A program made the translations under genes and the position numbers. The notes beneath the pieces were generated by a model. The model had not been told where the DNA came from. It ran no database searches and saw only the letters and a list, made by a program, of their open reading frames with translations. A stretch of DNA of 64,000 bases from a virus (Duplodnaviria > Heunggongvirae > Uroviricota > Caudoviricetes). The stretch lies in IMG/VR virus record IMGVR_UViG_3300044630_003672. One strand, 5' to 3'. The first letter of the stretch is position 1; each line of letters opens with the position of its first letter. This document shows positions 12,213-28,768 of this stretch, piece by piece.

Positions 12213-13034
12213 ATGGCTATTAATTTAGACGCAATTAAGAGCAGACTTAACAAACTGCAAAACACCCAAAGAACAACTGTAGAACTTTGGAAACCAGCAC
12301 CGGGAAAACACACTATTCGTTTAGTCCCTTACAAATTCAACAAAGAGAATCCTTTCATTGAATTGTACTTTCACTACAACATTAACAACAAAACTTATCT
12401 ATCTCCGATGTCATTCGGTAGACCTGACCCAATTGTTGAGTTTGCTGACAAACTTAAAAGAATGGGTGATAAGGAAGATTGGAAAGCTGCTAAAAAAATG
12501 GAGCCGAAACTTAGAACTTTTGTACCAGTATTGGTAAGAGGTGAAGAAGGTGAAGGTGTAAAATTTTGGGGCTTTGGAAAAACTGTATATCAAGAGATTC
12601 TTGGTTATATGGCAGATCCTGATTACGGTGATATTACTGACCCAAATGAAGGTAGAGATATTACTGTTGAAGTAGTATCAGCTGAAGACAGTGGTACATC
12701 TTACCCTGTAACAACAATCCGTGTTAAACCAAAGGAAACTCCATTGGCAACATCTAAAGAAGATACGGACAAGTATTTAACTTCTCAAAAAGAAATTACT
12801 GAACTTTATTCAGAATTAACTTATGCAGAATTGAAAAATGTATTAGAAGGTTGGTTAAATCCATCAGCAACATCGGAAGATGAAAAATCAGCATCAGCTG
12901 AAACACTTTCATCAACTGCTAAAAATGATGATGATGAAGCACCATTTGATACAACTCCATCAAAACCAGCGGCAGCGCCAGCTAAAAAATTAGATGATGT
13001 GGCAGCGGCATTTGATGACCTTTTCAATTCATAA
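12213..13034 (+). CDS. T4 gp32-like single-stranded DNA-binding protein
   Basis: WKPAPGKHTIRLVPY, PFIELYFHY, VKFWGFGK; acidic C-terminal tail ending FDDLFNS. Confidence 0.85.
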   Translation: MAINLDAIKSRLNKLQNTQRTTVELWKPAPGKHTIRLVPYKFNKENPFIELYFHYNINNKTYLSPMSFGRPDPIVEFADKLKRMGDKEDWKAAKKMEPKLRTFVPVLVRGEEGEGVKFWGFGKTVYQEILGYMADPDYGDITDPNEGRDITVEVVSAEDSGTSYPVTTIRVKPKETPLATSKEDTDKYLTSQKEITELYSELTYAELKNVLEGWLNPSATSEDEKSASAETLSSTAKNDDDEAPFDTTPSKPAAAPAKKLDDVAAAFDDLFNS

Positions 13035-13047
13035 AATAAGTTAATAT

Positions 13048-14169
13048 ATGGCTAAAGCAACTAAGGAAATAGACTTGGCAGCAGTACTTGCTGAGTCCCT
13101 TAACAAACAATCAAAAGACCAAAAGGTAGCATTCTTTTTGGACTCGGATGAAGCTCCCACAAATGTAGAGGGATGGATTTCAACCGGAGCATCAATGTTA
13201 GATGTGGCTATCTCAAATCGCCCGTATGGTGGTTTGCCTGTTGGTAGAATTACCGAAGTGACAGGATTGGAACAAAGCGGCAAATCATTACTTTCAGCAC
13301 ACTTACTTGCCGAAACACAAAAGTTAGGTGGTATCGCTGTGTTGATTGATACTGAAAACGCCGTAAGTAGAGAGTTCTTGGAAGCCATTGGAGTAGATAC
13401 AACCAAATTACTTTATGTAGCAGCTGAAACTGTTGAACAATGTTTTGAATATACCGAAACCATTATTGAGAAAGTGAGAACTAACTCAAAAGATAAGTAT
13501 GTAACAATCGTTGTGGATTCAGTAGCAGCGGCATCAACTGAAAAGGAGATGGAAGCTGATTATGGTAAAGATGGTTACGCTACCGATAAAGCAATTATCA
13601 TTTCCAAAGCAATGCGTAAAATTACTAACTTAATTGGTAGACAGAAAATCACTTTGGTTTTCACAAATCAATTAAGACAGAAGATGAACGCAATGCCATT
13701 CTCTGACCCTTGGACAACTTCTGGTGGTAAAGCAATTGCTTTCCACGCATCAGTTCGTTTGAGATTAAAGAGTATGGGAACGATTAAGGCTAAAGAAAAT
13801 GGTAACGAAAGAATCGTAGGTATTAAAGTTCGTTGTCAAGTAGTAAAAAATCGTATGGGACCACCGTTACGTTCCGCTGATTTTGATATCTTCTTTGACA
13901 GAGGCATTGATAACTATGGTGCTTGGTTAGGATTAATGAAGGATAATGGTATTGTAAAACAATCAGGAGCTTGGTATGAATATATTGATATTGATTCAGG
14001 CGAAGTGATTAAATTTCAATCCAAAGATTTTCCAACAACATTAGAATCTAATCAGGAAATAAAAGAACAAATCTATAAAAGGATTTGTGAAGCAACAATT
14101 TCACAATACAAAAAAGATTCATTGGATACTGATAGTTTGGTGACAGACTCAGAAGTAATCGGTGATTAA
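13048..14169 (+). CDS. uvsX: RecA/UvsX recombinase
   Basis: GLPVGRITEVTGLEQSGKS Walker A; IVVDSVAA; TSGGKAIAFHASVRL. Confidence 0.95.
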   Translation: MAKATKEIDLAAVLAESLNKQSKDQKVAFFLDSDEAPTNVEGWISTGASMLDVAISNRPYGGLPVGRITEVTGLEQSGKSLLSAHLLAETQKLGGIAVLIDTENAVSREFLEAIGVDTTKLLYVAAETVEQCFEYTETIIEKVRTNSKDKYVTIVVDSVAAASTEKEMEADYGKDGYATDKAIIISKAMRKITNLIGRQKITLVFTNQLRQKMNAMPFSDPWTTSGGKAIAFHASVRLRLKSMGTIKAKENGNERIVGIKVRCQVVKNRMGPPLRSADFDIFFDRGIDNYGAWLGLMKDNGIVKQSGAWYEYIDIDSGEVIKFQSKDFPTTLESNQEIKEQIYKRICEATISQYKKDSLDTDSLVTDSEVIGD

Positions 14170-14173
14170 TTAA

Positions 14174-15232
14174 ATGTTACAAAAAAATATGAAAGACTTA
14201 TACAAAAAATTACTCAATGAAGTAGAATCTGAACATGAATCTAATGCCCAAAGGGTAAGGAATGGTAGAGTTCTTATCATAGATGGACTCAATACCTTCA
14301 TCCGTAGTTGGACTACTAATCCCATTATGAATGAGGATGGTGAACATACGGGTGGAGTTATTGGTTCATTAAATTCAATCGGATATCAAATTCGTCAATT
14401 CAATCCAACCAGAGTTATCTTAACCTTTGATGGTAAGGGTGGTTCAAAAGGCAGGAAAGAATTATTTGAAGGATATAAAGCTGATAGAGGTAAGAATCGT
14501 TTTAGAGTAAATCGTCAGTATCCTGAAATGATGACTCAAGAAGATGAACAAATTTCAATGAAAAGACAATTTGTATGGTTAGTAGACTTGTTAGATAGTT
14601 TACCAATTACTACAATGATATATGATGGTATTGAAGCGGATGATGTAATAGGACACATAGCTAGGCATGTGCTTGGTGAAGATGAAGAATGTTACATCGT
14701 TTCTACTGATAAAGATTTTTTACAACTAGTAGATGAAAAAACAAAAGTATTTTCACCAACTAAAAAGAAACTTTACGATAGAGAATTAGTTAAATCAGAA
14801 TGGGGAATGTATCCGCAAAATCTTTTACTATTCAGAACATTGGATGGAGATAATTCTGATAATGTGCCTGGTGTTAAAGGATGTGGATTAAAGACTGTTC
14901 TTAAAAGATTTCCTGAATTATCGGAAGATAGAGAAATAACTTTTGATGAGTTCTTTCAAATATGCGAAGATAGAAGGAAAGAAGCTAAAATCTATGAAGA
15001 TATACTTGCGGCCAAAGATGATGTTTTGAGAAATAGACAAATCATGCAATTGCAAGAACCACATATCAATACAAATACAAAGTTGAAAATAAATGACCGT
15101 TTTGCCGAACCAAACAAAAAGTTTGATAAGATGGAATTTATCAGAGCAGCTATGAAGTATAAAATTCTTCAAAACTGGAAAGATATAAACGATTGGCTAA
15201 AATCAACATACACGAATATTATAGTAAAATAA
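14174..15232 (+). CDS. 5'-3' exonuclease / T4 RNase H-like flap endonuclease
   Basis: LIIDGLNTFIR, EADDVIG, VSTDKDFLQL, GDNSDNVPGVKGCGLKT. Confidence 0.92.
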   Translation: MLQKNMKDLYKKLLNEVESEHESNAQRVRNGRVLIIDGLNTFIRSWTTNPIMNEDGEHTGGVIGSLNSIGYQIRQFNPTRVILTFDGKGGSKGRKELFEGYKADRGKNRFRVNRQYPEMMTQEDEQISMKRQFVWLVDLLDSLPITTMIYDGIEADDVIGHIARHVLGEDEECYIVSTDKDFLQLVDEKTKVFSPTKKKLYDRELVKSEWGMYPQNLLLFRTLDGDNSDNVPGVKGCGLKTVLKRFPELSEDREITFDEFFQICEDRRKEAKIYEDILAAKDDVLRNRQIMQLQEPHINTNTKLKINDRFAEPNKKFDKMEFIRAAMKYKILQNWKDINDWLKSTYTNIIVK

Positions 15233-19412: not shown

Positions 19413-19444
19413 TTTGGTAATATCCAAAAAGTTTCGTAAATTTG
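19413..19444 (+). promoter_or_regulatory. Bacteroidota-type sigma70 promoter heading the AsnB-GNAT-MTase unit
   Basis: TTTG(19413)-N20-TAAATTTG(19437). It lies only 4 nt before the ATG, so the transcript would be near-leaderless. Confidence 0.65.
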
Positions 19445-19448
19445 TTAT

Positions 19449-20906
19449 ATGTGTGGAATAATAGGCGGTAATTGGTTTACTTCTAGTAAGCAGACCCATA
19501 CCCATTTACAAAAAATAATTCATAGAGGTAGAGATGCTTCTATTGTAGACGAGATAGACAGTGTCTTTGTTGGACACAATCGTCTTTCAATTCAAGATTT
19601 ATCTTCAACAGCAAACCAACCAATGTGGAATGGCGATAAGACTGTATGTATTGTATATAATGGAGAGTTATGGGATAGTAATTACACAAAAGAATTAAAA
19701 GATAAAATTACAATTCCATTTAAAACAAAATCTGATACTGAAATAATTCTTAATGCTTATTGTGAATTTGGAACTGATTCATTCAAAGATTTGGATGGGA
19801 TGTTTTCATTTGCAATAGTTGATACCAAAATTAATAAAATATTTGTAGTTAGAGATTACGTTGGTGAGTTACCTTTATGGTATGCAATTGATAACGATGG
19901 TAAGATGGTATTTTGTTCTGAAAAGAAAGGATTACCAATATCAGAACTTTATGAAAAGCAAGTAAAGGCAATTTATCCAGGAACTTATTTAGAATACAAC
20001 TATAAAACATTAGAACATTCAACGCAAACTTATTATAAACTTCCAAATGAAATAATAAATGATGATAGAGAAACTATCGTTACGAATATTAGAACAATGT
20101 TGGAAGAAGCTGTAAAAGTTAAGATGGTATCAGATGTTCCTATTTGTACTATTCTTAGCGGTGGTATTGATTCCGTTATCACTACATATATTCTTTCTAA
20201 AATTAAACCTGATATTGAAGCATTCGTTGTATCAATGGGTGATGGTGATACTAAAAATGATGATATAAAATATGCTAGAATTGCTGCAAAAGAATTTGGA
20301 GTAAAATTGCATGAAATTATTTTAACCGAACAGGATGTTGAAGATGCGGTTAAAGAAACTCTTTATGTTATTGAGCAAGGTAGATGGCAAAACGTTGGTA
20401 GTGCAATTGCACAAATAGCACTATCTAAAAAGATAAATGAGTTAGGATTCAAAGTTGTATTTAGTGGTGACCTATCCGATGAGATATGGGGTAGTTATGG
20501 GCACATTCAAGCGTTCCATTACAAACCCGAAGATTACGATAAGGCCAGAAGAAAATTAGTAGAAGATGTACATAAGACAAACTTCTTAACAACAAACCAA
20601 TCTATTATGTGGGGTGGAACCGTTGAGGTAAGAACTCCGTATAGTTGGAGACCGTTTGTTGAATATACTTTAAATATTCCACCATTATATCAAAAAGAAG
20701 GTGGACATATGAAACCACTATTAAGAGCTGCATTCAAAGGTGAGATTTCCGATGAACTATTATATAGACCTAAAGTTTACTTCGCAAAAGGATGTAGGAC
20801 AGGTGATATGATGGAAGCTAAAAAAGATATTTTGAAATCTCAATTAAAATCCTTATATTTGTATAAAGACGAACTAAACTTAAATAAATTCTTTCAATAT
20901 GCTTAA
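19449..20906 (+). CDS. Asparagine synthetase B-like glutamine amidotransferase (Ntn GATase plus PP-loop ATPase)
   Basis: N-terminal MCGII (Cys nucleophile), HRGRD, HNRLSIQD, NGEL, DGMFSF, LSGGIDS, VEVRTP. Confidence 0.9.
   Translation: MCGIIGGNWFTSSKQTHTHLQKIIHRGRDASIVDEIDSVFVGHNRLSIQDLSSTANQPMWNGDKTVCIVYNGELWDSNYTKELKDKITIPFKTKSDTEIILNAYCEFGTDSFKDLDGMFSFAIVDTKINKIFVVRDYVGELPLWYAIDNDGKMVFCSEKKGLPISELYEKQVKAIYPGTYLEYNYKTLEHSTQTYYKLPNEIINDDRETIVTNIRTMLEEAVKVKMVSDVPICTILSGGIDSVITTYILSKIKPDIEAFVVSMGDGDTKNDDIKYARIAAKEFGVKLHEIILTEQDVEDAVKETLYVIEQGRWQNVGSAIAQIALSKKINELGFKVVFSGDLSDEIWGSYGHIQAFHYKPEDYDKARRKLVEDVHKTNFLTTNQSIMWGGTVEVRTPYSWRPFVEYTLNIPPLYQKEGGHMKPLLRAAFKGEISDELLYRPKVYFAKGCRTGDMMEAKKDILKSQLKSLYLYKDELNLNKFFQYA
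20831..20861 (+). promoter_or_regulatory. Possible intragenic promoter at the 3' end of the AsnB-like gene
   Basis: TTTG(20831)-N19-TATATTTG(20854), about 38 nt before the GNAT ATG. Confidence 0.5.
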
Positions 20907-21420
20907 TTTTGTAAAAGCTGAAAAAGGTACAACTGAAATGATTGAAGCTGTAAATCAGGCTTCAACTATTATTGATTTGTATCCTGAAATATTTCCACAC
21001 TTATATAAGCAAGGCTTTAAGTTGGAAAAGTATATTGAAAAGGGTGGTATGATACTGCAAGACGGTGTTGTTATCACTTTTGGAAAATATAAATCTCATG
21101 GTAGAATGAGTAAAAATGCTACTACATATAAAAAGAAAGGAGATTATATTCTTCATCAAATTGCAACAAATCACTCTAAAACAAATGCTTCAAAAGAAGT
21201 ATTAGATGAGTTTGTAGAATATTGTAAATCACAACATGCAGAGAATCTATTCTTAACCGTTAGGGCATTCAATTATAGAGCCGTATTATTTTATGAGAGA
21301 TATGGTTTTGTAAAAGATAGTGATATAACTTGGACTAGTAAAAAAGACGGAGTTATAAATGGTATAGTATTCAGATTGAGATTGGTTGCAAACAAAAATA
21401 TAGAAACAGTATGTATTTAG
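20899..21420 (+). CDS. GNAT-family acyltransferase
   Basis: ILHQIAT and LFLTVRAFNYRAVLFYERYGF (GNAT motif B); overlaps the AsnB-like stop by 8 nt. Confidence 0.8.
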   Translation: MLNFVKAEKGTTEMIEAVNQASTIIDLYPEIFPHLYKQGFKLEKYIEKGGMILQDGVVITFGKYKSHGRMSKNATTYKKKGDYILHQIATNHSKTNASKEVLDEFVEYCKSQHAENLFLTVRAFNYRAVLFYERYGFVKDSDITWTSKKDGVINGIVFRLRLVANKNIETVCI

Positions 21421-22640
21421 AATATTTTGATAAATTTAAAGGTATGCAGCCATACCTATATATAAATTCAGAAGAATGGACTTATATTAAAAAAACATTT
21501 GATGTTAATGATGTTAAAGAATCATTAGCAGAAGTGTGTATGGCATACGAATTGCCTTTTGCTGAAATAAGTGAAGATGATGCTAGAAAAGAATATCTTG
21601 CATTAAAAGGTATTCGTTGGAATGAATTATTTACCGAAGGTGAATGGTTTCCAAGAAAGGCATCAGATTTTAGATACTCTTTAGATTTTCAAGGTAAACC
21701 ACAATACATTCGTAGATTAAATACCGGAAATGATGCATCAAATCATTTTCAACAAGCAAATCGTTGGAGTGTAGATGGAACGGTATCACCTGGACCTTCT
21801 AGAACTTGGGCAAGTAAAGAATTTATGACAACTCTAATGGGTGGGTTATATACTCTTAAATTTGATGAAGTTGGTAGAAACCAATTAAGAGTGTGTTTAA
21901 GTTTGAGAAAATATATTTGTTCTCAATTTAAACCAAATGCAGCAAAAGTATTGTATGATTTTTATGGAGCTAAAAATGTATTAGATATATCAGCGGGATG
22001 GGGTGATAGATTATGTGGATTCTTTGCATCTGAAAATGGTGAACATTATGTAGGAATAGACCCTAGAAAAGAAAATCATCCAATATATCGTAAACAGGCG
22101 GAATTCTATACTAAACACAATTCATTCTTTGAAACTGAAAAGAAAGCTGATTTTATAGAATCACCGGCGGAAGATGCAGATTTAACTCAATATAAAGAGC
22201 ACTTTGATATTGTATTTAGTTCACCACCGTATTTCAACGTAGAGAGATATTCTTACGATGATACTCAAAGTTGGGTTAGATATAAAAATATTGATGCTTG
22301 GAATAAAGAGTTTTTACATAAAACAATTGCAAACGTTTGGCCTACTTTAAAGAAAGGTGGTATCCTCGCAGTTAATATTGCAGATGTATATGCAAGTTCC
22401 AAAGGAGATGGTAAAGGTTATAAAGAGATATGTAATCCAATGAATGATTTTATTCAAACATTAGGTGCAGAATACGAAGGATGTTTGGGAATGGAAATGG
22501 CGAAAAGACCTGGTAGTGCTGGAGCGGGTTCTATCATAGAAGGAGATGAGGAAAGATATAGCGAAGAAGCTTTGAAAAAGGCGGAAGAAGCCGGTGATAA
22601 AACATTTTGTGAACCTATTTGGATTTGGAAAAAATTATGA
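21411..22640 (+). CDS. SAM-dependent amino-(N4C/N6A) DNA methyltransferase-like protein 1
   Basis: Motif I LDISAGWG; motif IV FSSPPYF. Confidence 0.85.
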   Translation: MYLEYFDKFKGMQPYLYINSEEWTYIKKTFDVNDVKESLAEVCMAYELPFAEISEDDARKEYLALKGIRWNELFTEGEWFPRKASDFRYSLDFQGKPQYIRRLNTGNDASNHFQQANRWSVDGTVSPGPSRTWASKEFMTTLMGGLYTLKFDEVGRNQLRVCLSLRKYICSQFKPNAAKVLYDFYGAKNVLDISAGWGDRLCGFFASENGEHYVGIDPRKENHPIYRKQAEFYTKHNSFFETEKKADFIESPAEDADLTQYKEHFDIVFSSPPYFNVERYSYDDTQSWVRYKNIDAWNKEFLHKTIANVWPTLKKGGILAVNIADVYASSKGDGKGYKEICNPMNDFIQTLGAEYEGCLGMEMAKRPGSAGAGSIIEGDEERYSEEALKKAEEAGDKTFCEPIWIWKKL

Positions 22641-23851
22641 TAAAAGAATACTTCAAAAAATTTTATGGGATGGAGCCGTATCTTCGTATTGAAAAAGACG
22701 AATGGCAAACTATTCTCAAAACTTATACGAAAAAAGAAATCATAGATGAACTTTCAGAAGTATTGCATACATACCCACCACCAATACCAACTATCACAGA
22801 AGAAGATACGTTAGATGCTTATAAAAAATTAAAAGGAACTTGGTGGCCTGATATTTTAGTAGAAGGTAAATGGTTTCCACGTAATGAAAGAGTATCAAAG
22901 TATCCATTAACTTATGATGGTTCTGAATATTATTTTAGAAGAACTAATGTAGGTAATAATGCATCCAATCCATTTCATATAGAAAATCGTTGGAAGGTTG
23001 ATTGGGTTAGAACACCATCGGGTTGGAAAACTTGGCAAACGGTAGAAGGTATTAAAACAATCGTAAGAGCATACTTTACTTTGGATAAAATGTTATTGGA
23101 TGTAAATTTGGAAACTCTTAAAATGGCAACTACATTAAGAAAGTATGTTGCATCACAATTTAAACCTGTTATTGCAAAAGCATTCTATGATAAGTTTCAA
23201 AGTAAAAATGTTATGGATTTTTCAGCAGGATGGGGTGACCGTTTAGCTGGATTCTTTGCAGGAGAAACAACAAAGTTTTATTTAGGTATTGACCCAAATA
23301 GTAGTAATCATCCTAACTATCAAAAACAAATTGAGTTCTATAAAAAACATACAACATTCTTTGAAGAAGATAAAGATGCAAAGATGTTACAAGCGGCGGC
23401 TGAAGATGTAGATTATTCAGAGTATGAAAACTTCTTTGATACAATCTTTACTTCACCACCGTATTTTAATACGGAAAGATACAGCTTTGATGATACTCAA
23501 AGTTGGATTAGATATAAAAAGTTTGATGATTGGAACAAAGGGTTCTTTCATACAACATTAGACAAAATTATACCAACCTTAAAAAAAGGTGGAATACTGG
23601 CAATCAATATTGCGGATGTATTTTCCGCACCTGATAAGGGGTATGTGGACATAGTTAATTCTATGAACGATTTCCTTCAATCCAGAGGGTTAATTTATAA
23701 AGGGTGTATTGGTATGGAAATGACAAAAAGACCCAATAGTGGGGGTGCTGGGATGGCTGTATCGGAATATTACTCCGATGAATTGAAGGAAAAGGCTGAA
23801 GAAACAAAAAACCACGCATTTGGAGAACCAATATGGATTTGGGAAAAATAA
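22637..23851 (+). CDS. Amino-DNA methyltransferase-like protein 2 (paralog of 1)
   Basis: MDFSAGWG; FTSPPYF; ATGA overlap with the upstream gene. Confidence 0.85.
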   Translation: MIKEYFKKFYGMEPYLRIEKDEWQTILKTYTKKEIIDELSEVLHTYPPPIPTITEEDTLDAYKKLKGTWWPDILVEGKWFPRNERVSKYPLTYDGSEYYFRRTNVGNNASNPFHIENRWKVDWVRTPSGWKTWQTVEGIKTIVRAYFTLDKMLLDVNLETLKMATTLRKYVASQFKPVIAKAFYDKFQSKNVMDFSAGWGDRLAGFFAGETTKFYLGIDPNSSNHPNYQKQIEFYKKHTTFFEEDKDAKMLQAAAEDVDYSEYENFFDTIFTSPPYFNTERYSFDDTQSWIRYKKFDDWNKGFFHTTLDKIIPTLKKGGILAINIADVFSAPDKGYVDIVNSMNDFLQSRGLIYKGCIGMEMTKRPNSGGAGMAVSEYYSDELKEKAEETKNHAFGEPIWIWEK

Positions 23852-23852
23852 A

Positions 23853-23884
23853 TTTGGTAGATTCAATAAAATATCGTATATTTG
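23853..23884 (+). promoter_or_regulatory. Bacteroidota-type sigma70 promoter
   Basis: TTTG(23853)-N20-TATATTTG(23877). Confidence 0.8.
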
Positions 23885-23916
23885 TATTCACAATTTAAAA
23901 TTTAAACATAAACAAA

Positions 23917-24636
23917 ATGAACAAAGCAAAATTAACAAGATTTATCCAAAAGTATAGTTTGGGTGGATTAGTAGAATCAGTTGCATGGAAAACGGAAGAT
24001 AACAAATTAGTTACTCGTTTCATATCCGATGACAAAACTGTATTGGGTGAAATTCAATTAGATAATTTCACATTTAGTGCACCTGATTTAGGAGTGTACA
24101 CAACATCAGCATTATCAAAATTACTTTCGGTAGTTGGTGAAGATATTGAGTTGGAAGCACAAGAAATTGAAGGTAAAGCTGTAAACCTTTTCGTTAAAAG
24201 CGAAAACACAAAGGTTCAGTTTCAATTGGCAGATTTGGCAGTTATTCCAAATGTACCAGATTTGAAAAAACTTCCTGATTTTGATGTTGATATTAATTTT
24301 GATGGTGCGTTTATTGATAAATTTATCAAAGCTAAAAACGCATTGAGTGATGTTGATACATTTACTATTCTTACTGAAAAGAAAGAATTAAAAGTTGTAT
24401 TGGGTTATTCAAATATTAACTCAAATAGAGTTGTGTTCGTAGTTGATAAAGCATATGCAGGTGATGTTAAACCAATTTCTTTCTCAGCAAAGTATTTGAA
24501 AGAAATCTTAACTGCAAATAAAGAGGCAACTGCGGTTGTACTTAAAGTATCAACACAAGGTATTTCGCACGTTGAATTTAAAATTGATGATTTCACTGCA
24601 AAATATTACCTAGTAGAACAACAATTAACTGCATAA
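23917..24636 (+). CDS. Sliding clamp (gp45/PCNA-like)
   Basis: 239 aa with an alternating beta/alpha two-domain pattern; located in the replication block near PolB and the clamp loader. Confidence 0.6.
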   Translation: MNKAKLTRFIQKYSLGGLVESVAWKTEDNKLVTRFISDDKTVLGEIQLDNFTFSAPDLGVYTTSALSKLLSVVGEDIELEAQEIEGKAVNLFVKSENTKVQFQLADLAVIPNVPDLKKLPDFDVDINFDGAFIDKFIKAKNALSDVDTFTILTEKKELKVVLGYSNINSNRVVFVVDKAYAGDVKPISFSAKYLKEILTANKEATAVVLKVSTQGISHVEFKIDDFTAKYYLVEQQLTA

Positions 24637-26207
24637 TGAGTTTTAATTACAAAAAGAAATATTTCTACGAAAAGAATGACTGGTTGTACGAACCGGAAGT
24701 GAACTTATTATATGAAGATGTTCTTAAAATGCCATTCGCCGATTTTGAAAGGTGGGTGGCATTTTTTAGAGAACTCGCAGTAAGAGTTTGGAATGAAACC
24801 GGAGCACCACCGAGAATCGGTGTTGATGAAGGTGAAATGATTGAACAATTTTCTAAACTACAAACTTACAAAGTAGAAAAGTTTGAAGAAAAAGATGATG
24901 ACGGAAACGAAGTCATCTTTAACTTCAATAAGTTTGCAACACCAGTTAATCAATTCTTTCCTGCGATGTATAAGACGGGAATCGGTGGTTCGGCTTATGA
25001 TAAGCCAAAACCATCAATCTACGATGTATTCGCAGATGATGCCTATTTGACAGAGTTTGTAAAACAAATGAGAAGATTAACTAGGCAAGATGGTATGTAT
25101 CGTTTTTCTAAAACCTTACATTTAGATAATCCAGAATTTCATAATTCACATATCCAAAGTGGTAAAGAGTGGATTGAAAAATGGGCAGCGGGTAATAAGA
25201 AAGAAGGATATGGATTTTGTTTATCACAAGCGGATAGCAAAGTTCCATCACCGCCAATTACTGCACAAGAAGTTAAAGACCTTTATGCAGCTGGTATATT
25301 GAAGTATGAAAACATATCTTCATTAAAAACTGCGGATTGGGGTGAGAATATTGATAATTTAGTTGATGTTCCAAAACAACCAATTCAGATTAAGATATAC
25401 CCATTAGGACAAAGAATATTTCCTGAAGCAACTGCTGCATTTCGTATCGGTATGGGTACACAGGCGGTTGTAAACTTCCCACCACTTACTGCAAAATATC
25501 TTTATAAAAGATTTACGGAACATATTAAAAAACAAGATGTAATTAACATCTATGACCCATCAGCGGGTTGGGGTGGTAGAATATTAGGAGCATTAAGTCT
25601 TGATGATAGAAATATCCATTACATAGGAAATGACCCTAATACCGAAAACTACATTTCAGAAATCGGTAAGACTCGCTATGAGTATCTTGCGGAGTTCTTT
25701 AATAATAAAGTACCGGGTGCAGCTAATCCTTTTTGGGGACACGCTAATACATACGAAATCTTTACAACTGGTTCTGAAATTATTAAAGATGACCCGAGAT
25801 TTCAAAAGTATAAAGGTAAATTAGATTTTGCATTTACTTCTCCGCCATACTTTGATAGAGAACGATATTCTGATGATGATACACAATCATTTAAGAAATT
25901 TGGTAACTATGAAAGTTGGAGAGATGGATTTTTAAGACCAACATTAGAAACTATATATGAGTATCTTCGTAATGACCGTTATGTATGTTGGAATATTGCA
26001 GATATTAAAGTTGGTCCTGATAAGTTTTATCCATTGGAGCAAGATAGTATTGATATACTTACACAATTGGGATGTGAGTATAAAGGCAAATTAAGAATGA
26101 CAATGAGTCCAATGACGGGAATGGATTTATCTAAAGCGAAAAATTGTATGCAGATTGAAGGGCAATTTTATAAGTACGAACCAATTTTTATATTTTATAA
26201 ACCATAA
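24636..26207 (+). CDS. Amino-DNA methyltransferase-like protein 3 with long N-terminal region
   Basis: IYDPSAGWGG; FTSPPYF; TAATG-coupled to the clamp gene. Confidence 0.85.
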   Translation: MSFNYKKKYFYEKNDWLYEPEVNLLYEDVLKMPFADFERWVAFFRELAVRVWNETGAPPRIGVDEGEMIEQFSKLQTYKVEKFEEKDDDGNEVIFNFNKFATPVNQFFPAMYKTGIGGSAYDKPKPSIYDVFADDAYLTEFVKQMRRLTRQDGMYRFSKTLHLDNPEFHNSHIQSGKEWIEKWAAGNKKEGYGFCLSQADSKVPSPPITAQEVKDLYAAGILKYENISSLKTADWGENIDNLVDVPKQPIQIKIYPLGQRIFPEATAAFRIGMGTQAVVNFPPLTAKYLYKRFTEHIKKQDVINIYDPSAGWGGRILGALSLDDRNIHYIGNDPNTENYISEIGKTRYEYLAEFFNNKVPGAANPFWGHANTYEIFTTGSEIIKDDPRFQKYKGKLDFAFTSPPYFDRERYSDDDTQSFKKFGNYESWRDGFLRPTLETIYEYLRNDRYVCWNIADIKVGPDKFYPLEQDSIDILTQLGCEYKGKLRMTMSPMTGMDLSKAKNCMQIEGQFYKYEPIFIFYKP

Positions 26208-26215
26208 CATAATAG

Positions 26216-28768
26216 ATGTATCAAAACATTTTCTTTGAAAGAAATAGAAACTTAATTCATTTGTGGGATGACACTTTAGGGTATCGCACATTTCCATATA
26301 AAAAATATGCATATGTTAAAGACCCAAATGGGGAATATCAATCTATGCATGGTGACCGTTTAAGTAAAGTATTTAAATGGGAAAAGGATAGTGGTGAGGA
26401 ATTATTTGAATCAGATGTACCGGAAACCACCAGAGTATTAGTAGACCTATATGGGGATGATACTCCATCTAAAGGTCATATTGTTTTAACTTTTGACATT
26501 GAGGTAGAAATGATAACAGGACTTCCAAACATTGAAAAAGCCGAAAACGAAATTACTTCAATAGCAGCGTATGATGATGCCACAAAAGAGTATCATGTAT
26601 TCGTTGTAGATAAAAAAGGTAAGGTAAACGGTAAATCGTTTCAAAAAGATGGTAGAGATGTGCATGTTCATATCTTTGGTAGTGAGCGTGAATTGTTGAT
26701 GAAATACTTAACTTATGTTGAAAGTGTAAACGCAACGATTTGGACGGGATGGAATATTGATTTCTTTGACGTTCCATATCTTTATAATCGTATTAAGAAT
26801 GTATGTGGGGAAAATCAAGCCAATCGTTTATCTTGTATAGGTAAAACATATTGGTCACCTTATCGTAATCGTTATAGTATTGCGGGTGTGAGTATTATGG
26901 ACTATATCGGTTTGTATAAACGATACAACTTTGGTTTAGAGAGTTCATATACTCTTAATCATATCGCTATGAAAGAATTGGGTAGAGGTAAGGTTGAATA
27001 TGAGGGAAGTTTGGATGACTTATTTGAGGATGATTTAGAAAAATTTATTGAATATAACATTACTGACGTTGAGTTGGTGGTATCAATGGATACCAAACTT
27101 CAATTTATTGAATTAAGTAGAGCGATTTGTCATTCTGGATTTACACCATATGAAGATTACATTTTCTCATCAAAGTATTTGGAAGGAGCTTGTTTAGCTT
27201 ATCTTAAAAAGAAAGGATTGGTAGCACCTAATAAACCAAAGAATCACAAAGATAAACTTGCAGAACAGGCTGAAGCTGGTGAAGAAAAATTTATTGGGGC
27301 ATATGTTAAAGAACCAATTGTTGGTAAGTATGATTGGATTTATGACTTGGACTTAACATCTCTATATCCATCAATCATTATGACCTTAAATATCTCACCT
27401 GAAACAAAGGTTGGTAAGATTTCAAATTGGGATCCTGAATCTTGGGTTAGGGGTGAAGATAGACAATATACGATTGTTGGTAAAACAAAAGAGTTTACAT
27501 ATAATAGAAAAGAATTAGAAGAAGTAATTAGAGATAATCAATTAGGTGTTGCTGCAAATGGTGTGTTATATACACAAAAGAAACCTGGTTTGATTGCAGA
27601 TATTTTAGATACTTGGTTTAAACAAAGGGTTGAGTTCAGAAAGTTGGAGAAGAAGTATGGTGAGGCGGGTGATACTGAAAAATATGAATTCTATGGTAAG
27701 AGGCAGTTGGTACAAAAGATTCTTTTGAACTCAATGTATGGTGTGTTAGGACTTGTTGCATTTAGATTCTATGATATTGATAATGCAGAAGCAGTAACGA
27801 TTACCGGTCAAACTGTAATTAAGAAAACTGCCGAAATGGCAAATCTTAAATACCAAAAAGAGTTGGGTACAAAAGACGATTATAATGTTTACATTGATAC
27901 TGATTCAATTTATATGATGGCAGAACCTTTGGTTAAATTTAGGTATCCTGAATATAAAACATTTGACCAAACTAGAATGGCATCCGAAGTTAATATCGTT
28001 GCAGAAGAAACTCAAGCATTTTTAAATTCATTTTATAACTTACTAGCGGAAAGATTCTTTTGTATTCCAAAAGAGAAACACCGCTTTGAGATTAAGAAAG
28101 AGTATATCAGTAAAGCAGGATTTTGGGTAGCAAAGAAGCGATACGCACAATGGATGATTTTGAAGAATGGAATTCCTTGCGATAAATTGGATGTAAAAGG
28201 ATTGGATGTAGTACGTTCATCGTTTCCAAAAGCATTTCAGGAGTTTATGGCTAAAATGTTAAAAGACATTCTAATGGGTAAAACCAATGAAGAAATAAAT
28301 GAATCTCTTTTAGAATTTAAAAAGAGTATCTATACACTTCCGATAAATAAAATCGCAAAAGGTGGAGCTATTAAAGAATTGAGTAAATACGATAAAGGTA
28401 AGTGGAGAAAAGATAGTGGATTGGCGATTGCTAATTTTGAGAAAGGAACACCTGCACACGTTAAGGCTGGAATTGCTTATAATAGATTACTTAAATTCTT
28501 TGAATGTCCGTTTAAACATGAACCTATTAGAGATGGTGAAAAAGTTAAATGGGTATATCTTAAAAGTAATCCATTGGGAATAGATACTTTGGCATTCAAA
28601 GATTATAATGACCCAAAGGATGTATTGGATTTCATTGATAAATACATAGATAGAGATGAAATATATAAAGCAGAATTAGAAAATAAACTAAATGATTTCT
28701 TCGGTGCTCTCAAATGGGAAATGGCATCGGTAGAATCACAAAACGCAAAAAAGTTTTTTGAATTCTAA
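26216..28768 (+). CDS. Family B DNA polymerase
   Basis: ExoI FDIEVE; motif A DLDLTSLYPSII; motif B QKILLNSMYG; motif C YIDTDS. Confidence 0.96.
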   Translation: MYQNIFFERNRNLIHLWDDTLGYRTFPYKKYAYVKDPNGEYQSMHGDRLSKVFKWEKDSGEELFESDVPETTRVLVDLYGDDTPSKGHIVLTFDIEVEMITGLPNIEKAENEITSIAAYDDATKEYHVFVVDKKGKVNGKSFQKDGRDVHVHIFGSERELLMKYLTYVESVNATIWTGWNIDFFDVPYLYNRIKNVCGENQANRLSCIGKTYWSPYRNRYSIAGVSIMDYIGLYKRYNFGLESSYTLNHIAMKELGRGKVEYEGSLDDLFEDDLEKFIEYNITDVELVVSMDTKLQFIELSRAICHSGFTPYEDYIFSSKYLEGACLAYLKKKGLVAPNKPKNHKDKLAEQAEAGEEKFIGAYVKEPIVGKYDWIYDLDLTSLYPSIIMTLNISPETKVGKISNWDPESWVRGEDRQYTIVGKTKEFTYNRKELEEVIRDNQLGVAANGVLYTQKKPGLIADILDTWFKQRVEFRKLEKKYGEAGDTEKYEFYGKRQLVQKILLNSMYGVLGLVAFRFYDIDNAEAVTITGQTVIKKTAEMANLKYQKELGTKDDYNVYIDTDSIYMMAEPLVKFRYPEYKTFDQTRMASEVNIVAEETQAFLNSFYNLLAERFFCIPKEKHRFEIKKEYISKAGFWVAKKRYAQWMILKNGIPCDKLDVKGLDVVRSSFPKAFQEFMAKMLKDILMGKTNEEINESLLEFKKSIYTLPINKIAKGGAIKELSKYDKGKWRKDSGLAIANFEKGTPAHVKAGIAYNRLLKFFECPFKHEPIRDGEKVKWVYLKSNPLGIDTLAFKDYNDPKDVLDFIDKYIDRDEIYKAELENKLNDFFGALKWEMASVESQNAKKFFEF

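What the first reader, a model, noticed from the sequence alone, without database searches (positions are those of the whole stretch)
19449..26207. Candidate undescribed DNA hypermodification module: AsnB-like amidotransferase, GNAT and three SPPY methyltransferase-fold enzymes in the replisome block
Seen: a promoter at 19413, then overlapping ORFs AsnB-like / GNAT / MTase1 / MTase2, then sliding clamp / MTase3 / PolB. The AsnB-like protein keeps both the Ntn Cys and the SGGIDS PP-loop. Established: AsnB-fold enzymes adenylate a carboxylate and amidate it; phage Mu Mom is a GNAT-fold enzyme making N6-carbamoylmethyladenine; MTase folds can transfer carboxymethyl from carboxy-SAM (CmoB). Inference: the set could install an N-linked group on A or C, then amidate and/or acylate it, giving a base that evades restriction. 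Asparagine supply does not explain this synteny well.
Basis: partly seen in the sequence, partly recalled or inferred. Interest (0 to 1): 0.85.

Follow-up and report, generated by a model that had tools for sequence, protein, structure and literature searches.

The report
Phage AsnB-GNAT-methyltransferase DNA-modification operon
An uncultured freshwater phage carries a conserved operon next to its DNA polymerase and sliding clamp: an asparagine-synthetase-like amidotransferase that has lost its aspartate site, a small acetyltransferase and SPPY methyltransferase-like enzymes. It most likely puts an undescribed decoration on the phage's own DNA, but the chemistry is unproven.

Summary
All ORFs, overlaps, the Ntn-Cys, SGGIDS, the three SPPY motifs and a promoter motif at 19413 (Bacteroidota type, enriched in the window) are present.

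The AsnB-like protein keeps its glutaminase and PP-loop. It lacks E. coli AsnB Thr322/Thr323/Arg325 and the C-terminal region with Cys523, so it is probably not an asparagine synthetase.

AsnB-GNAT-MT stays together in at least four gene orders relative to PolB, clamp and clamp loader. AsnB-GNAT is gained or lost as a pair, and the MT family also occurs alone beside the clamp.

The closest AsnB-like genes in cultured phages sit in DNA-modification clusters (CmoX/CmoA; QueC/DpdA). Only AsnB and PolB carry a C-terminal KFF tail, in the window and in a complete 209-kb relative. The GNAT carries it in many relatives.

Complete relatives have no CmoA, DpdA, ThyA or ThyX. This argues against the carboxy-SAM, deazaguanine and 5-hydroxymethyl routes.

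Best reading (about 0.5): a replisome-linked DNA-modification operon. The adduct may be the aminocarboxypropyl group of SAM, amidated and N-acetylated; this is inference only.

The scan has noted related modules on other DNA.

The parts
19413..19444 (+). Bacteroidota-type promoter motif (TTTG-N19-TAAATTTG) in front of the AsnB-GNAT-MT1-MT2 unit
   Evidence: 18 matches in the window against 3.3 +/- 1.8 in shuffles; sequence.
19449..20906 (+). AsnB-like glutamine amidotransferase / PP-loop adenylating enzyme (485 aa). Glutaminase and ATP sites are kept; the aspartate-site residues are lost.
   Evidence: (phrog_16728).
20880..20903 (+). C-terminal tail LNKFFQYA of the AsnB-like protein. It resembles the PolB tail and is a candidate clamp-binding peptide.
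   Evidence: conserved in diverged orthologues. Only AsnB and PolB have such a tail in the window and in the complete relative G002.
20899..21420 (+). Small GNAT-fold N-acyltransferase (173 aa), translationally coupled to AsnB and MT1
21411..22640 (+). MT1: N-terminal domain of about 165 aa plus a class I SAM-transferase domain with motif order X-I-IV and SSPPYF
22637..23851 (+). MT2: old paralogue of MT1 (51% identity), TSPPYF. Its N-terminus carries KKFY.
   Evidence: (MT2 orthologues at 68-72% in other lineages).
23853..23884 (+). Second Bacteroidota-type promoter motif, in front of clamp-MT3-PolB
23917..24636 (+). Probable sliding clamp (gp45/PCNA-like, 239 aa)
   Evidence: Synteny with PolB and clamp loader.
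24636..26207 (+). MT3: third paralogue (28% identity to MT1) with a longer N-terminal region, TSPPYF. It follows the clamp gene with a 1-nt overlap. Its N-terminus carries KKKYFY.
   Evidence: (clamp-MT3 adjacency in many lineages).
26216..28768 (+). Family B DNA polymerase (context). Its C-terminal tail AKKFFEF lies at about 28745-28765.

Best explanation
The region is a replisome-linked operon that chemically modifies the phage's own DNA after synthesis.

The SPPY enzymes (MT1, MT2, MT3) are gamma-order transferases of the type that acts on exocyclic amines, using S-adenosylmethionine. They are the core, and they occur next to the sliding clamp in a very wide set of aquatic phages.

AsnB-like and GNAT are an accessory pair that tailors what is put on the base. 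The AsnB-like enzyme hydrolyses glutamine, adenylates a carboxylate that is not aspartate, and converts it to an amide. The GNAT N-acylates an amine. AsnB (and, in many relatives, the GNAT) carries the same C-terminal KFF tail as the DNA polymerase, so it is probably held at the clamp.

The simplest adduct with both a free carboxylate and a free amine is the 3-amino-3-carboxypropyl group of SAM. In wybutosine this group is transferred by an MTase-fold enzyme (TYW2) and then capped. In diphthamide the same group, installed by a different kind of enzyme, is methylated and then amidated. I therefore propose: N-(aminocarboxypropyl) base, then amide, then N-acetyl.

Shown here: gene order, motifs, conservation, loss of the aspartate-site residues, and terminal motifs.

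Inferred: DNA as the substrate, clamp tethering, and the whole chemistry. I put the acp chemistry at about 0.15-0.2 overall.
For: (1) AsnB-GNAT-MT(~410 aa) is conserved in all 34 loci found with AsnB and in three loci found with distant GNATs. It holds through at least four arrangements relative to PolB, clamp and clamp loader. In one lineage AsnB is 90% identical while PolB is only 57%.

(2) AsnB-GNAT comes and goes as a pair. L060/L062 read RNR-DUF5522-Trx-AsnB-GNAT-MT1, while L061/L112 read RNR-DUF5522-Trx-MT1.

(3) Start and stop codons overlap, and one promoter motif precedes the four genes.

(4) E. coli AsnB T322/T323/R325 read Q/N/G here, D384 reads N, and the C-terminal ~70 residues with C523 are absent. 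Cys1, the glutaminase residues and SGGIDS are kept (residue roles from PMC5775275).

(5) The protein falls in phrog_16728 together with Streptomyces phage TurkishDelight gp124, its best cultured-phage hit (30% identity, 2e-48). gp124 is flanked by a C5-MTase and a CmoA-like gene. Achromobacter phage Motura's homologue lies between QueC and DpdA. PMC12783734 shows that an AsnB homologue amidates a DNA-borne carboxylate.

(6) 22 of 80 loci found with the MT family hold an AsnB-family gene within 10 kb, of two subtypes only 34% identical to each other. By contrast only 17 of 50,697 phage records hold any hit. The second subtype travels with a PLP enzyme of the threonine-dehydratase fold, a 2-hydroxyacid dehydrogenase and a TS-like protein. 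The first two are also enzymes that tailor amino-acid moieties.

(7) A C-terminal [x]K[FY][FY] tail occurs only on AsnB and PolB among 64 window ORFs and among 188 ORFs of the complete relative G002 (expected 0.25 and 0.49). It is kept in diverged AsnB orthologues, and 10 of 23 GNAT family members also end in EKFF.

(8) MT fold and motifs: pLDDT 94; nearest solved folds are Trm11/TrmN/METTL5/RsmC-type N-methyltransferases (Z about 15); full-length AFDB matches (TM 0.63-0.68) are auto-named cytosine-N4 DNA methyltransferases; Pfam N6_N4_Mtase hits 51 of 60 family members.
Against: There is no chemical or sequencing evidence for any modification.

The MT family, with the same motifs, occurs without AsnB-GNAT in many phages. 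The MTs may therefore simply methylate, which would leave AsnB without a DNA-borne carboxylate.

The AsnB-like protein still passes the TIGR01536 cut-off (283.7 against 267.1), and its best solved relative is true AsnB.

The best sequence matches of the GNAT are protein N-terminal and polyamine acetyltransferases.

The nearest solved folds of the MT domain are RNA, not DNA, methyltransferases.

The window holds a very large glycan-synthesis cluster 6 kb downstream. That cluster could use an amidotransferase and an acetyltransferase.

The terminal-motif argument is post hoc and rests on small numbers.
Confidence: 0.5

Rival explanations
1. Two unrelated things share one operon. MT1-3 are ordinary orphan DNA N4-cytosine or N6-adenine methyltransferases that protect the genome. 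AsnB-like and GNAT act on something that is not DNA: a nucleotide-sugar or uronic acid for the phage's glycosylated collagen-like fibre, a small metabolite, or a protein.
For: The MT family occurs alone with unchanged motifs. The window holds a large glycan cluster with GT2/GT4, nucleotidyltransferases and a UDP-GlcNAc 2-epimerase. From general knowledge, AsnB-family amidotransferases and GNATs are both common in polysaccharide pathways. The GNAT's closest sequence matches are RimI/Ard1/PaiA-type enzymes.
Against: In every lineage examined the pair sits in the replication block and never in the glycan cluster. It keeps its place directly upstream of MT1 through rearrangements. AsnB, and the GNAT in relatives, share a terminal tail with the DNA polymerase. 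The nearest AsnB-like proteins in cultured phages lie in DNA-modification clusters.
Confidence: 0.22
2. An SPPY enzyme transfers carboxymethyl from carboxy-SAM to N4 of cytosine or N6 of adenine, and the AsnB-like enzyme amidates it to a carbamoylmethyl base. This would be the same product class as Mu Mom, and an N-linked version of the CmoX/CmoY system.
For: PMC12783734 shows carboxy-SAM-dependent DNA carboxymethylation followed by an AsnB-homologue amide ligase. It also predicts a glutamine-dependent subgroup. The window's AsnB-like protein shares phrog_16728 and 30% identity with a member that sits between a C5-MTase and CmoA.
Against: No CmoA homologue is present in two complete relatives of 209 and 237 kb. 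The control Bacteroides genome did not register either, and the promoters point to a Bacteroidota host. The route gives the GNAT no role. The CmoX authors report finding no N-carboxymethyltransferases associated with CmoA.
Confidence: 0.08
3. The module modifies RNA rather than DNA: phage or host tRNA, rRNA, or the phage tmRNA.
For: The nearest solved structures of the MT domain are tRNA/rRNA N-methyltransferases, namely Trm11, TrmN, Trm14, METTL5, RsmC and RsmD. A source annotation calls relatives RsmD. From general knowledge, aminocarboxypropyl and acetyl decorations are known from RNA.
Against: Pfam N6_N4_Mtase hits 51 of 60 family members. Full-length AFDB relatives are named DNA N4-methyltransferases, and some are fused to homing-endonuclease, TnsA or ParB domains. 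An MT paralogue directly follows the clamp gene in many lineages. AsnB and PolB share a tail.
Confidence: 0.1
4. The AsnB-like gene is a plain auxiliary metabolic gene that makes asparagine for the infected cell.
For: It passes the TIGR01536 cut-off, and its best solved relative is E. coli AsnB at 3e-48. Some cyanophages annotate asparagine synthase genes.
Against: T322/T323/R325 and the C-terminal region with C523 are missing. The PRK09431 equivalog score is 286 against a cut-off of 499. It is always paired with the GNAT and an MT, and the two are lost together. It carries a polymerase-like tail.
Confidence: 0.06

Closest known systems
CmoA-CmoX-CmoY system of Synechococcus phage S-B43 and its predicted glutamine-dependent subgroup, e.g. 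Streptomyces phage TurkishDelight gp123-125 (PMC12783734)
   Same: A phage operon pairs a SAM-family transferase acting on DNA bases with an asparagine-synthetase-family adenylating enzyme that turns a base-borne carboxylate into an amide. The window's protein shares phrog_16728 with TurkishDelight gp124 at 30% identity, and it keeps the glutaminase domain as that subgroup does.
   Different: The transferases here are SPPY amino-transferase types with motif I before motif IV, not C5-cytosine enzymes with SPPC. Complete relatives have no CmoA. A GNAT is an obligate partner. AsnB carries a polymerase-like C-terminal tail that TurkishDelight gp124 lacks. S-B43 CmoY has no glutaminase domain.
Wybutosine (TYW2, TYW3, TYW4) and diphthamide (Dph2, Dph5, Dph6) pathways (general knowledge, not tested here)
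   Same: The chemical logic matches the proposed model. The aminocarboxypropyl group of SAM is transferred, and its amine and carboxylate are then capped. Diphthamide ends with an ATP-dependent amidation by a PP-loop-type enzyme. TYW2 is an MTase-fold enzyme, and it appears among the fold matches at Z 13.4.
   Different: Those pathways act on tRNA or on a protein, not on DNA. No sequence-level relationship to TYW2 or Dph6 beyond the shared superfamilies was shown. Here the capping would be by N-acetylation and glutamine-dependent amidation.
Phage Mu Mom (PMC13219725)
   Same: A GNAT-fold enzyme in a phage that could decorate an exocyclic amine of DNA.
   Different: Mom works alone with Gly-tRNA and needs an HTH-like insertion at residues 175-209. 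The window GNAT is a minimal 173-aa fold whose nearest structures are PaiA/RimI/Ard1. A tblastn search of the phage collection at E <= 1 listed no Escherichia (Mu) record among its 10 matches.
Orphan phage DNA amino-methyltransferases (N4-cytosine / N6-adenine)
   Same: SAM-binding motif I and a (S/T)SPPY catalytic motif. Pfam N6_N4_Mtase hits most family members, and AFDB relatives are auto-named N4-cytosine DNA methyltransferases.
   Different: This is a distinct, very large and uncharacterised family: 4,622 clusters at 50% identity. It has its own ~165-aa N-terminal domain and no solved close relative. Three old paralogues are present, and one is always next to the sliding-clamp gene.
E. 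coli asparagine synthetase B (PDB 1CT9)
   Same: Class II glutaminase domain with Cys1, a PP-loop SGGxDS, and about 31% identity over residues 23-463.
   Different: T322/T323/R325 read Q/N/G, E348 reads D and D384 reads N. The protein ends about 70 residues earlier, so C523 is absent. A conserved KFF tail has been added.

Membership tests
Asparagine synthetase B (glutamine-hydrolysing) | N-terminal nucleophile Cys and class II glutaminase residues | tested here: met
   MCGIIG start. HNRLSIQD, YNGEL and SDTE align with E. coli R49/N74-E76/D98. GATase_7 at 1e-29.
Asparagine synthetase B (glutamine-hydrolysing) | PP-loop SGGxDS ATP pyrophosphatase motif | tested here: met
   LSGGIDS is invariant in alignment A4.
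Asparagine synthetase B (glutamine-hydrolysing) | Curated family score | tested here: inconclusive
   TIGR01536 scores 283.7 against a cut-off of 267.1 (passes). The PRK09431 AsnB equivalog scores 285.9 against 499 (fails).
Asparagine synthetase B (glutamine-hydrolysing) | Residues for aspartate/ATP binding and beta-aspartyl-AMP formation (E. coli T322, T323, R325, C523) | tested here: not met
   Q, N and G stand at the three positions. The protein ends before the C523 region. Roles of the residues are as summarised in PMC5775275.
CmoA-CmoX-CmoY carboxymethyl-cytosine system | Phage-encoded carboxy-SAM synthase CmoA | tested here: not met
   TIGR00740 finds nothing at E <= 0.01 in two complete relatives (209 and 237 kb) or in two partial ones. 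No such hit appeared in the window ORFs scanned.
CmoA-CmoX-CmoY carboxymethyl-cytosine system | C5-cytosine methyltransferase homologue with the SPPC motif | tested here: not met
   MT1-3 carry SPPY and give no C5-MTase (dcm) match. TurkishDelight gp123 does match dcm, at 1e-48.
CmoA-CmoX-CmoY carboxymethyl-cytosine system | Asparagine-synthetase-family amide-forming enzyme next to the transferase | tested here: met
   Gene order. Shared phrog_16728 with TurkishDelight gp124.
Mom-type DNA-modifying GNAT | GNAT core with the essential HTH-like insertion (Mu Mom residues ~175-209) | tested here: not met
   The model is 173 aa with only the minimal GNAT elements. Best folds are PaiA, RimI and Ard1. 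Insertion as described in PMC13219725.
DNA N4-cytosine / N6-adenine amino-methyltransferases | SAM-binding motif I and catalytic (D/N/S)PP(Y/F) motif IV | tested here: met
   DxSAGWGxR and (S/T)SPPYF are invariant in the three paralogues and in 60 diverse relatives.
DNA N4-cytosine / N6-adenine amino-methyltransferases | Pfam N6_N4_Mtase at or above the gathering score | tested here: inconclusive
   MT2 scores 27.6 (passes 26.7). MT1 scores 24.8 and MT3 19.3 (both below). 51 of 60 relatives hit at E <= 1e-3.
DNA N4-cytosine / N6-adenine amino-methyltransferases | DNA as substrate and methyl as the group transferred | not testable with these tools
   This needs enzyme assays or nucleoside analysis.
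5-hydroxymethylpyrimidine-based hypermodification (phages M6, ViI, PaMx11, T4) | Thymidylate-synthase-family hydroxymethylase in the genome | tested here: not met
   Neither PF00303 nor PF02511 matches in the complete window-type relatives G002 and G003. A divergent TS-like gene exists only in the second cassette type of other lineages.
7-deazaguanine DNA modification (DpdA systems) | DpdA / tRNA-guanine transglycosylase homologue | tested here: not met
   PF01702 gives no match in G001, G002, G003 or G005.

The most novel reading that the evidence does not exclude
The SPPY enzymes do not, or not only, methylate. Instead they transfer the 3-amino-3-carboxypropyl group of SAM to an exocyclic nitrogen of cytosine or adenine in newly replicated DNA. 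A clamp-tethered AsnB-like amidotransferase and the GNAT then cap the carboxylate as an amide and the amine as an acetamide. This would be a new class of DNA base decoration. Sister lineages would tailor the same handle with PLP and dehydrogenase enzymes.
Probability: 0.17. Interest if true: 0.9.

Novelty: new variant of a known kind. Interest (0 to 1): 0.68.

Why it matters
Phage DNA hypermodifications defeat restriction enzymes and CRISPR nucleases, and they supply enzymes for DNA labelling.

The only characterised system that pairs a SAM-family transferase with an asparagine-synthetase-like amide former was described in December 2025. It acts at C5 of cytosine with carboxy-SAM, and its authors found no N-directed counterpart associated with CmoA.

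This operon is a candidate N-directed counterpart that does not depend on CmoA. It is widespread in freshwater phages. It has a natural presence/absence polymorphism of the tailoring pair, and a plausible tether to the sliding clamp. It can be tested directly by co-expression and nucleoside mass spectrometry.

The SPPY family itself numbers thousands of clusters and always has a copy beside the clamp gene in this phage group. It is uncharacterised and would be worth study even if it only methylates.

Tried and rejected
- **Clamp-AsnB complex prediction:** clamp with AsnB residues 421-485 scored 0.28 against a mark of 0.34. The tool gives no verdict, so this counts neither for nor against binding.
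- **Near-identical DNA in the phage collection:** none found. The nearest cultured relative by PolB is Microcystis phage Mel-JY01 (48%). It has no AsnB, GNAT or MT between thioredoxin and PolB.
- **Sequence search of MT1 against solved structures:** nothing meaningful. Foldseek against the PDB gave only generic class I methyltransferases.
- **Generic sigma-70 promoter scan:** not enriched. I replaced it with the Bacteroidota pattern.
- **The 390-aa P-loop+GNAT gene next to MT1 in other lineages:** at first it looked like part of a pathway. It belongs to phrog_11143, a gene spread over many unrelated small phages, so I do not count it as evidence.
- **Cofactor-tailoring idea:** I considered that AsnB-GNAT might tailor the cofactor (an amidated, acetylated SAM) for the MTs. 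I rejected it because the MT motifs are the same in phages with and without the pair.
- **Ring-carbonyl amination of a base (GMP-synthetase-like):** rejected as a post-replicative reaction because it would change base pairing (reasoning only).
- **The look-up of sequencing runs:** No read-level look at modification signals or expression was possible.

Full report
**What is there**

The window comes from a large uncultured phage with about 33% G+C and almost all genes on one strand. It has a T4-like replication set: gp32-like SSB, UvsX, a DnaB-like helicase, class II RNR, thioredoxin, clamp, clamp loader and PolB.

The AsnB-like protein starts MCGIIG, carries LSGGIDS, and matches Asn_synthase (3e-47) and GATase_7. 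The GNAT match is weak in sequence, but its model is a confident minimal GNAT fold.

The three MT paralogues share DxSAGWGxR, GxDP and (S/T)SPPYF-x2-ERYS-x-DDTQS. Motif I comes before motif IV, which is the gamma order.

The promoter at 19413 is not a sigma-70 consensus site. It is a clean Bacteroidota-type TTTG-N19-TAnnTTTG site. That pattern occurs 18 times in the window against 3.3 expected, nearly always on the coding strand, and a second copy lies at 23853 before the clamp gene. The block therefore holds two transcription units, AsnB-GNAT-MT1-MT2 and clamp-MT3-PolB, and the host is probably a member of the Bacteroidota.

**Is the gene set a unit?**

A nearly identical IMG/VR contig and 33 further viral contigs found with AsnB all carry AsnB-GNAT-MT1 wherever the contig reaches that far. 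The order of the surrounding genes changes:
- RNR-Trx-AsnB-GNAT-MT1-(MT2)-clamp-MT3-PolB in the window type;
- Trx-PolB-clamp-clamp loader-AsnB-GNAT-MT1-MT2 in a lineage whose PolB is only 57% identical while AsnB is 90%;
- AsnB-GNAT-67aa-MT-PolB-clamp-MT3, and PolB...AsnB-GNAT-MT-MT3, in lineages whose GNAT is about 50% identical.

The trio therefore travels together.

Searching from the MT side gave 80 further loci, which show three things.
- AsnB-GNAT is present or absent as a pair in otherwise collinear genomes. L060/L062 have it; L061/L112 do not.
- A large marine group has only clamp-MT1(-MT2)-clamp loader, with no AsnB or GNAT within 10 kb.
- A third group has a different AsnB-family gene, 34-39% identical, close to MT1. 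It lies in a tight set with a divergent thymidylate-synthase-like protein and a PLP enzyme of the threonine-dehydratase fold, and in some contigs a 2-hydroxyacid dehydrogenase. The best solved match of the TS-like protein is CMP 5-hydroxymethylase, at 1.5e-3.

In all, 22 of the 80 MT loci have an AsnB-family gene within 10 kb. Only 17 of 50,697 phage records have any hit to it. These loci are related, so the count is not a set of independent events. Even so, two subtypes in different positions argue for a functional link.

**The AsnB-like protein**

Its best solved relative is E. coli AsnB (3e-48), and it passes the broad TIGR01536 model but not the AsnB equivalog. I aligned it with E. coli AsnB taken from the K-12 record. 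The glutaminase residues and the PP-loop are kept. T322, T323 and R325 read Q, N and G. E348 reads D and D384 reads N. The chain ends about 70 residues early, so C523 is absent. T322/T323/R325/C523 are the residues reported to bind aspartate and ATP (PMC5775275). This is an amidotransferase for some other carboxylate.

It falls in phrog_16728, as do the second subtype and Streptomyces phage TurkishDelight gp124. gp124 is its best hit among cultured phages. It sits between a C5-cytosine methyltransferase and a CmoA-like carboxy-SAM synthase, next to two ParB genes. This is the arrangement that PMC12783734 describes for the predicted glutamine-dependent branch of the CmoX/CmoY system. In Achromobacter phage Motura the homologue sits between QueC and a DpdA-type transglycosylase. 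Phage members of this family therefore have a record of working on DNA bases.

**The polymerase-like tail**

The protein ends in LNKFFQYA and PolB ends in AKKFFEF. Another first-stage note pointed this out, and I tested it. The tail is kept in diverged AsnB orthologues (ADKFFG, FNNFFE, FDKFFSLND, LNKFFS, LNKFFG), while TurkishDelight gp124 lacks it. PolB of five lineages ends in KKFFSF, DKFFSF, ERFF or SKFFNFK.

Among non-nested coding-strand ORFs, a C-terminal [KRNDE]K[FY][FY] occurs only on AsnB and PolB. This holds for the window (64 ORFs, 0.25 expected) and for the complete 209-kb relative G002 (188 ORFs, 0.49 expected). Ten of 23 GNAT family members end in EKFF-x-F. In two contigs further proteins of the block carry it too. 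MT2 and MT3 have a similar motif at their N-termini.

In T4 and RB69 the polymerase binds the clamp through its C-terminal tail (general knowledge). A shared clamp-binding peptide is therefore the natural reading, but it remains an inference. The one complex prediction I could run gave no verdict.

**The MT family**

This is a huge uncharacterised family, with 4,622 clusters at 50% identity at E <= 1e-3. The model is confident (pLDDT 94). The catalytic domain is closest to Trm11, TrmN, Trm14, METTL5, RsmC and PrmC, all N-directed (D/N/S)PP(Y/F) enzymes.

Full-length matches in AlphaFold DB (TM 0.63-0.68) are proteins auto-named cytosine-N4 DNA methyltransferases. Some are fused to LAGLIDADG, TnsA or ParB domains. 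Pfam N6_N4_Mtase hits 51 of 60 diverse members.

MT1, MT2 and MT3 are old paralogues and not a recent duplication. MT2 orthologues in other lineages are 68-72% identical to the window's MT2, where MT1 orthologues are 54-60%. One paralogue directly follows the clamp gene in nearly every lineage. DNA is the most likely substrate. RNA is not excluded.

**What is ruled out**

Complete relatives lack all four of the following:
- CmoA;
- DpdA/TGT;
- ThyA;
- ThyX.

The carboxy-SAM, 7-deazaguanine and 5-hydroxymethylpyrimidine routes are therefore unlikely for this cassette. The GNAT is not Mom-like.

**Mechanism proposed**

An amidotransferase needs a carboxylate and an N-acetyltransferase needs an amine. 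In the sister cassette the partners are a PLP enzyme and a 2-hydroxyacid dehydrogenase, which are enzymes of alpha-amino and alpha-keto acids. A single handle that offers both groups and comes from the cofactor of the neighbouring enzyme is the 3-amino-3-carboxypropyl group of SAM.

In wybutosine an MTase-fold enzyme (TYW2) transfers this group, and its amine and carboxylate are then capped. In diphthamide the same group is methylated and then amidated by an ATP-dependent enzyme (general knowledge).

An earlier scan report on a sister module described an "amino-acid-like decoration", and that wording led me to this reading. I could test only its genomic side. I hold the general statement, a replisome-linked DNA-modification operon with AsnB-GNAT as tailoring pair, at about 0.5. 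I hold the aminocarboxypropyl chemistry at about 0.17.

The main rival is that the MTs merely methylate and the AsnB-GNAT pair serves another pathway, for instance the large glycan cluster 6 kb downstream.

**Novelty**

Pairing a SAM-family DNA transferase with an AsnB-family amide former has been known since December 2025 (PMC12783734). This cassette differs in four ways: the class of transferase, the lack of CmoA, the obligate GNAT, and the polymerase-like tail. That paper states that no N-directed counterpart associated with CmoA had been found in phages. A full-text search found no paper on aminocarboxypropyl DNA in phages.

Noticed in passing
window 19413, 23853, 28757, 12075, 15233, 3190, 40690, 56154, 62050 and others: An extended promoter-like motif, TTTGGTA-N-AAA-N-CGTATATTTG, of the Bacteroidota -33/-7 type. 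It has 18 copies against 3.3 expected, and 17 are on the coding strand in front of genes. It suggests a Bacteroidota host and marks the operon boundaries.
   Followed up: partly
window 22637-22672 and 24636-24680; GNAT relatives in alignment A3; L077:8372-9949; L107:11543-12466: A terminal (K/N/E)K(F/Y)(F/Y) motif recurs beyond AsnB and PolB. It is at the N-termini of MT2 and MT3, at the C-termini of 10 of 23 GNAT relatives, and on two further proteins inserted in the block in other contigs. It may be a shared docking peptide of the replisome.
   Followed up: partly
L054:12473-15508; L065:6734-9961; L079, L093, L110, L115: A second cassette occupies the same genomic slot in 275-290-kb relatives. 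It holds a divergent thymidylate-synthase-like protein (best solved match CMP 5-hydroxymethylase), a 501-565-aa AsnB-family protein and a PLP enzyme (phrog_7093), sometimes with a 2-hydroxyacid dehydrogenase, all next to MT1. Those genomes also have a canonical ThyA elsewhere.
   Followed up: partly
G002 and G003 (complete relatives, 209 and 237 kb): No ThyA and no ThyX were found, although these phages encode RNR, thioredoxin and a dUTPase-like protein. They appear to depend on the host for thymidylate.
   Followed up: partly
L048:11636-12208; G002:C1:46524-46649; G003, G006, G007: All four complete relatives encode a protein of about 190-200 aa from the PNP_UDP_1 family, which includes MTA/SAH nucleosidases. 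In one contig it lies two genes after MT2. This would fit heavy use of SAM.
   Followed up: no
window 32530-61000: A very large glycan-synthesis region: GT4, several GT2, two nucleotidyltransferases, a cupin, a RuBisCO-like protein, a UDP-GlcNAc 2-epimerase, an FkbM methyltransferase, an APS-kinase-like protein and WavE-like genes. It surrounds a 1,083-aa collagen-repeat protein and a subtilase.
   Followed up: no
L046:2113-4894 and 12653-14973: In one relative the PolB and clamp-loader genes are split, and there are intein-type (Intein_splicing) hits nearby.
   Followed up: no
L005-L007 (marine relatives): Downstream of clamp-MT-clamp loader lie four tandem 2OG-Fe(II) oxygenase genes and a small PP-loop (QueC-like, faint) gene. 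A TonB-dependent-receptor plug-domain gene sits between RNR and PolB.
   Followed up: no
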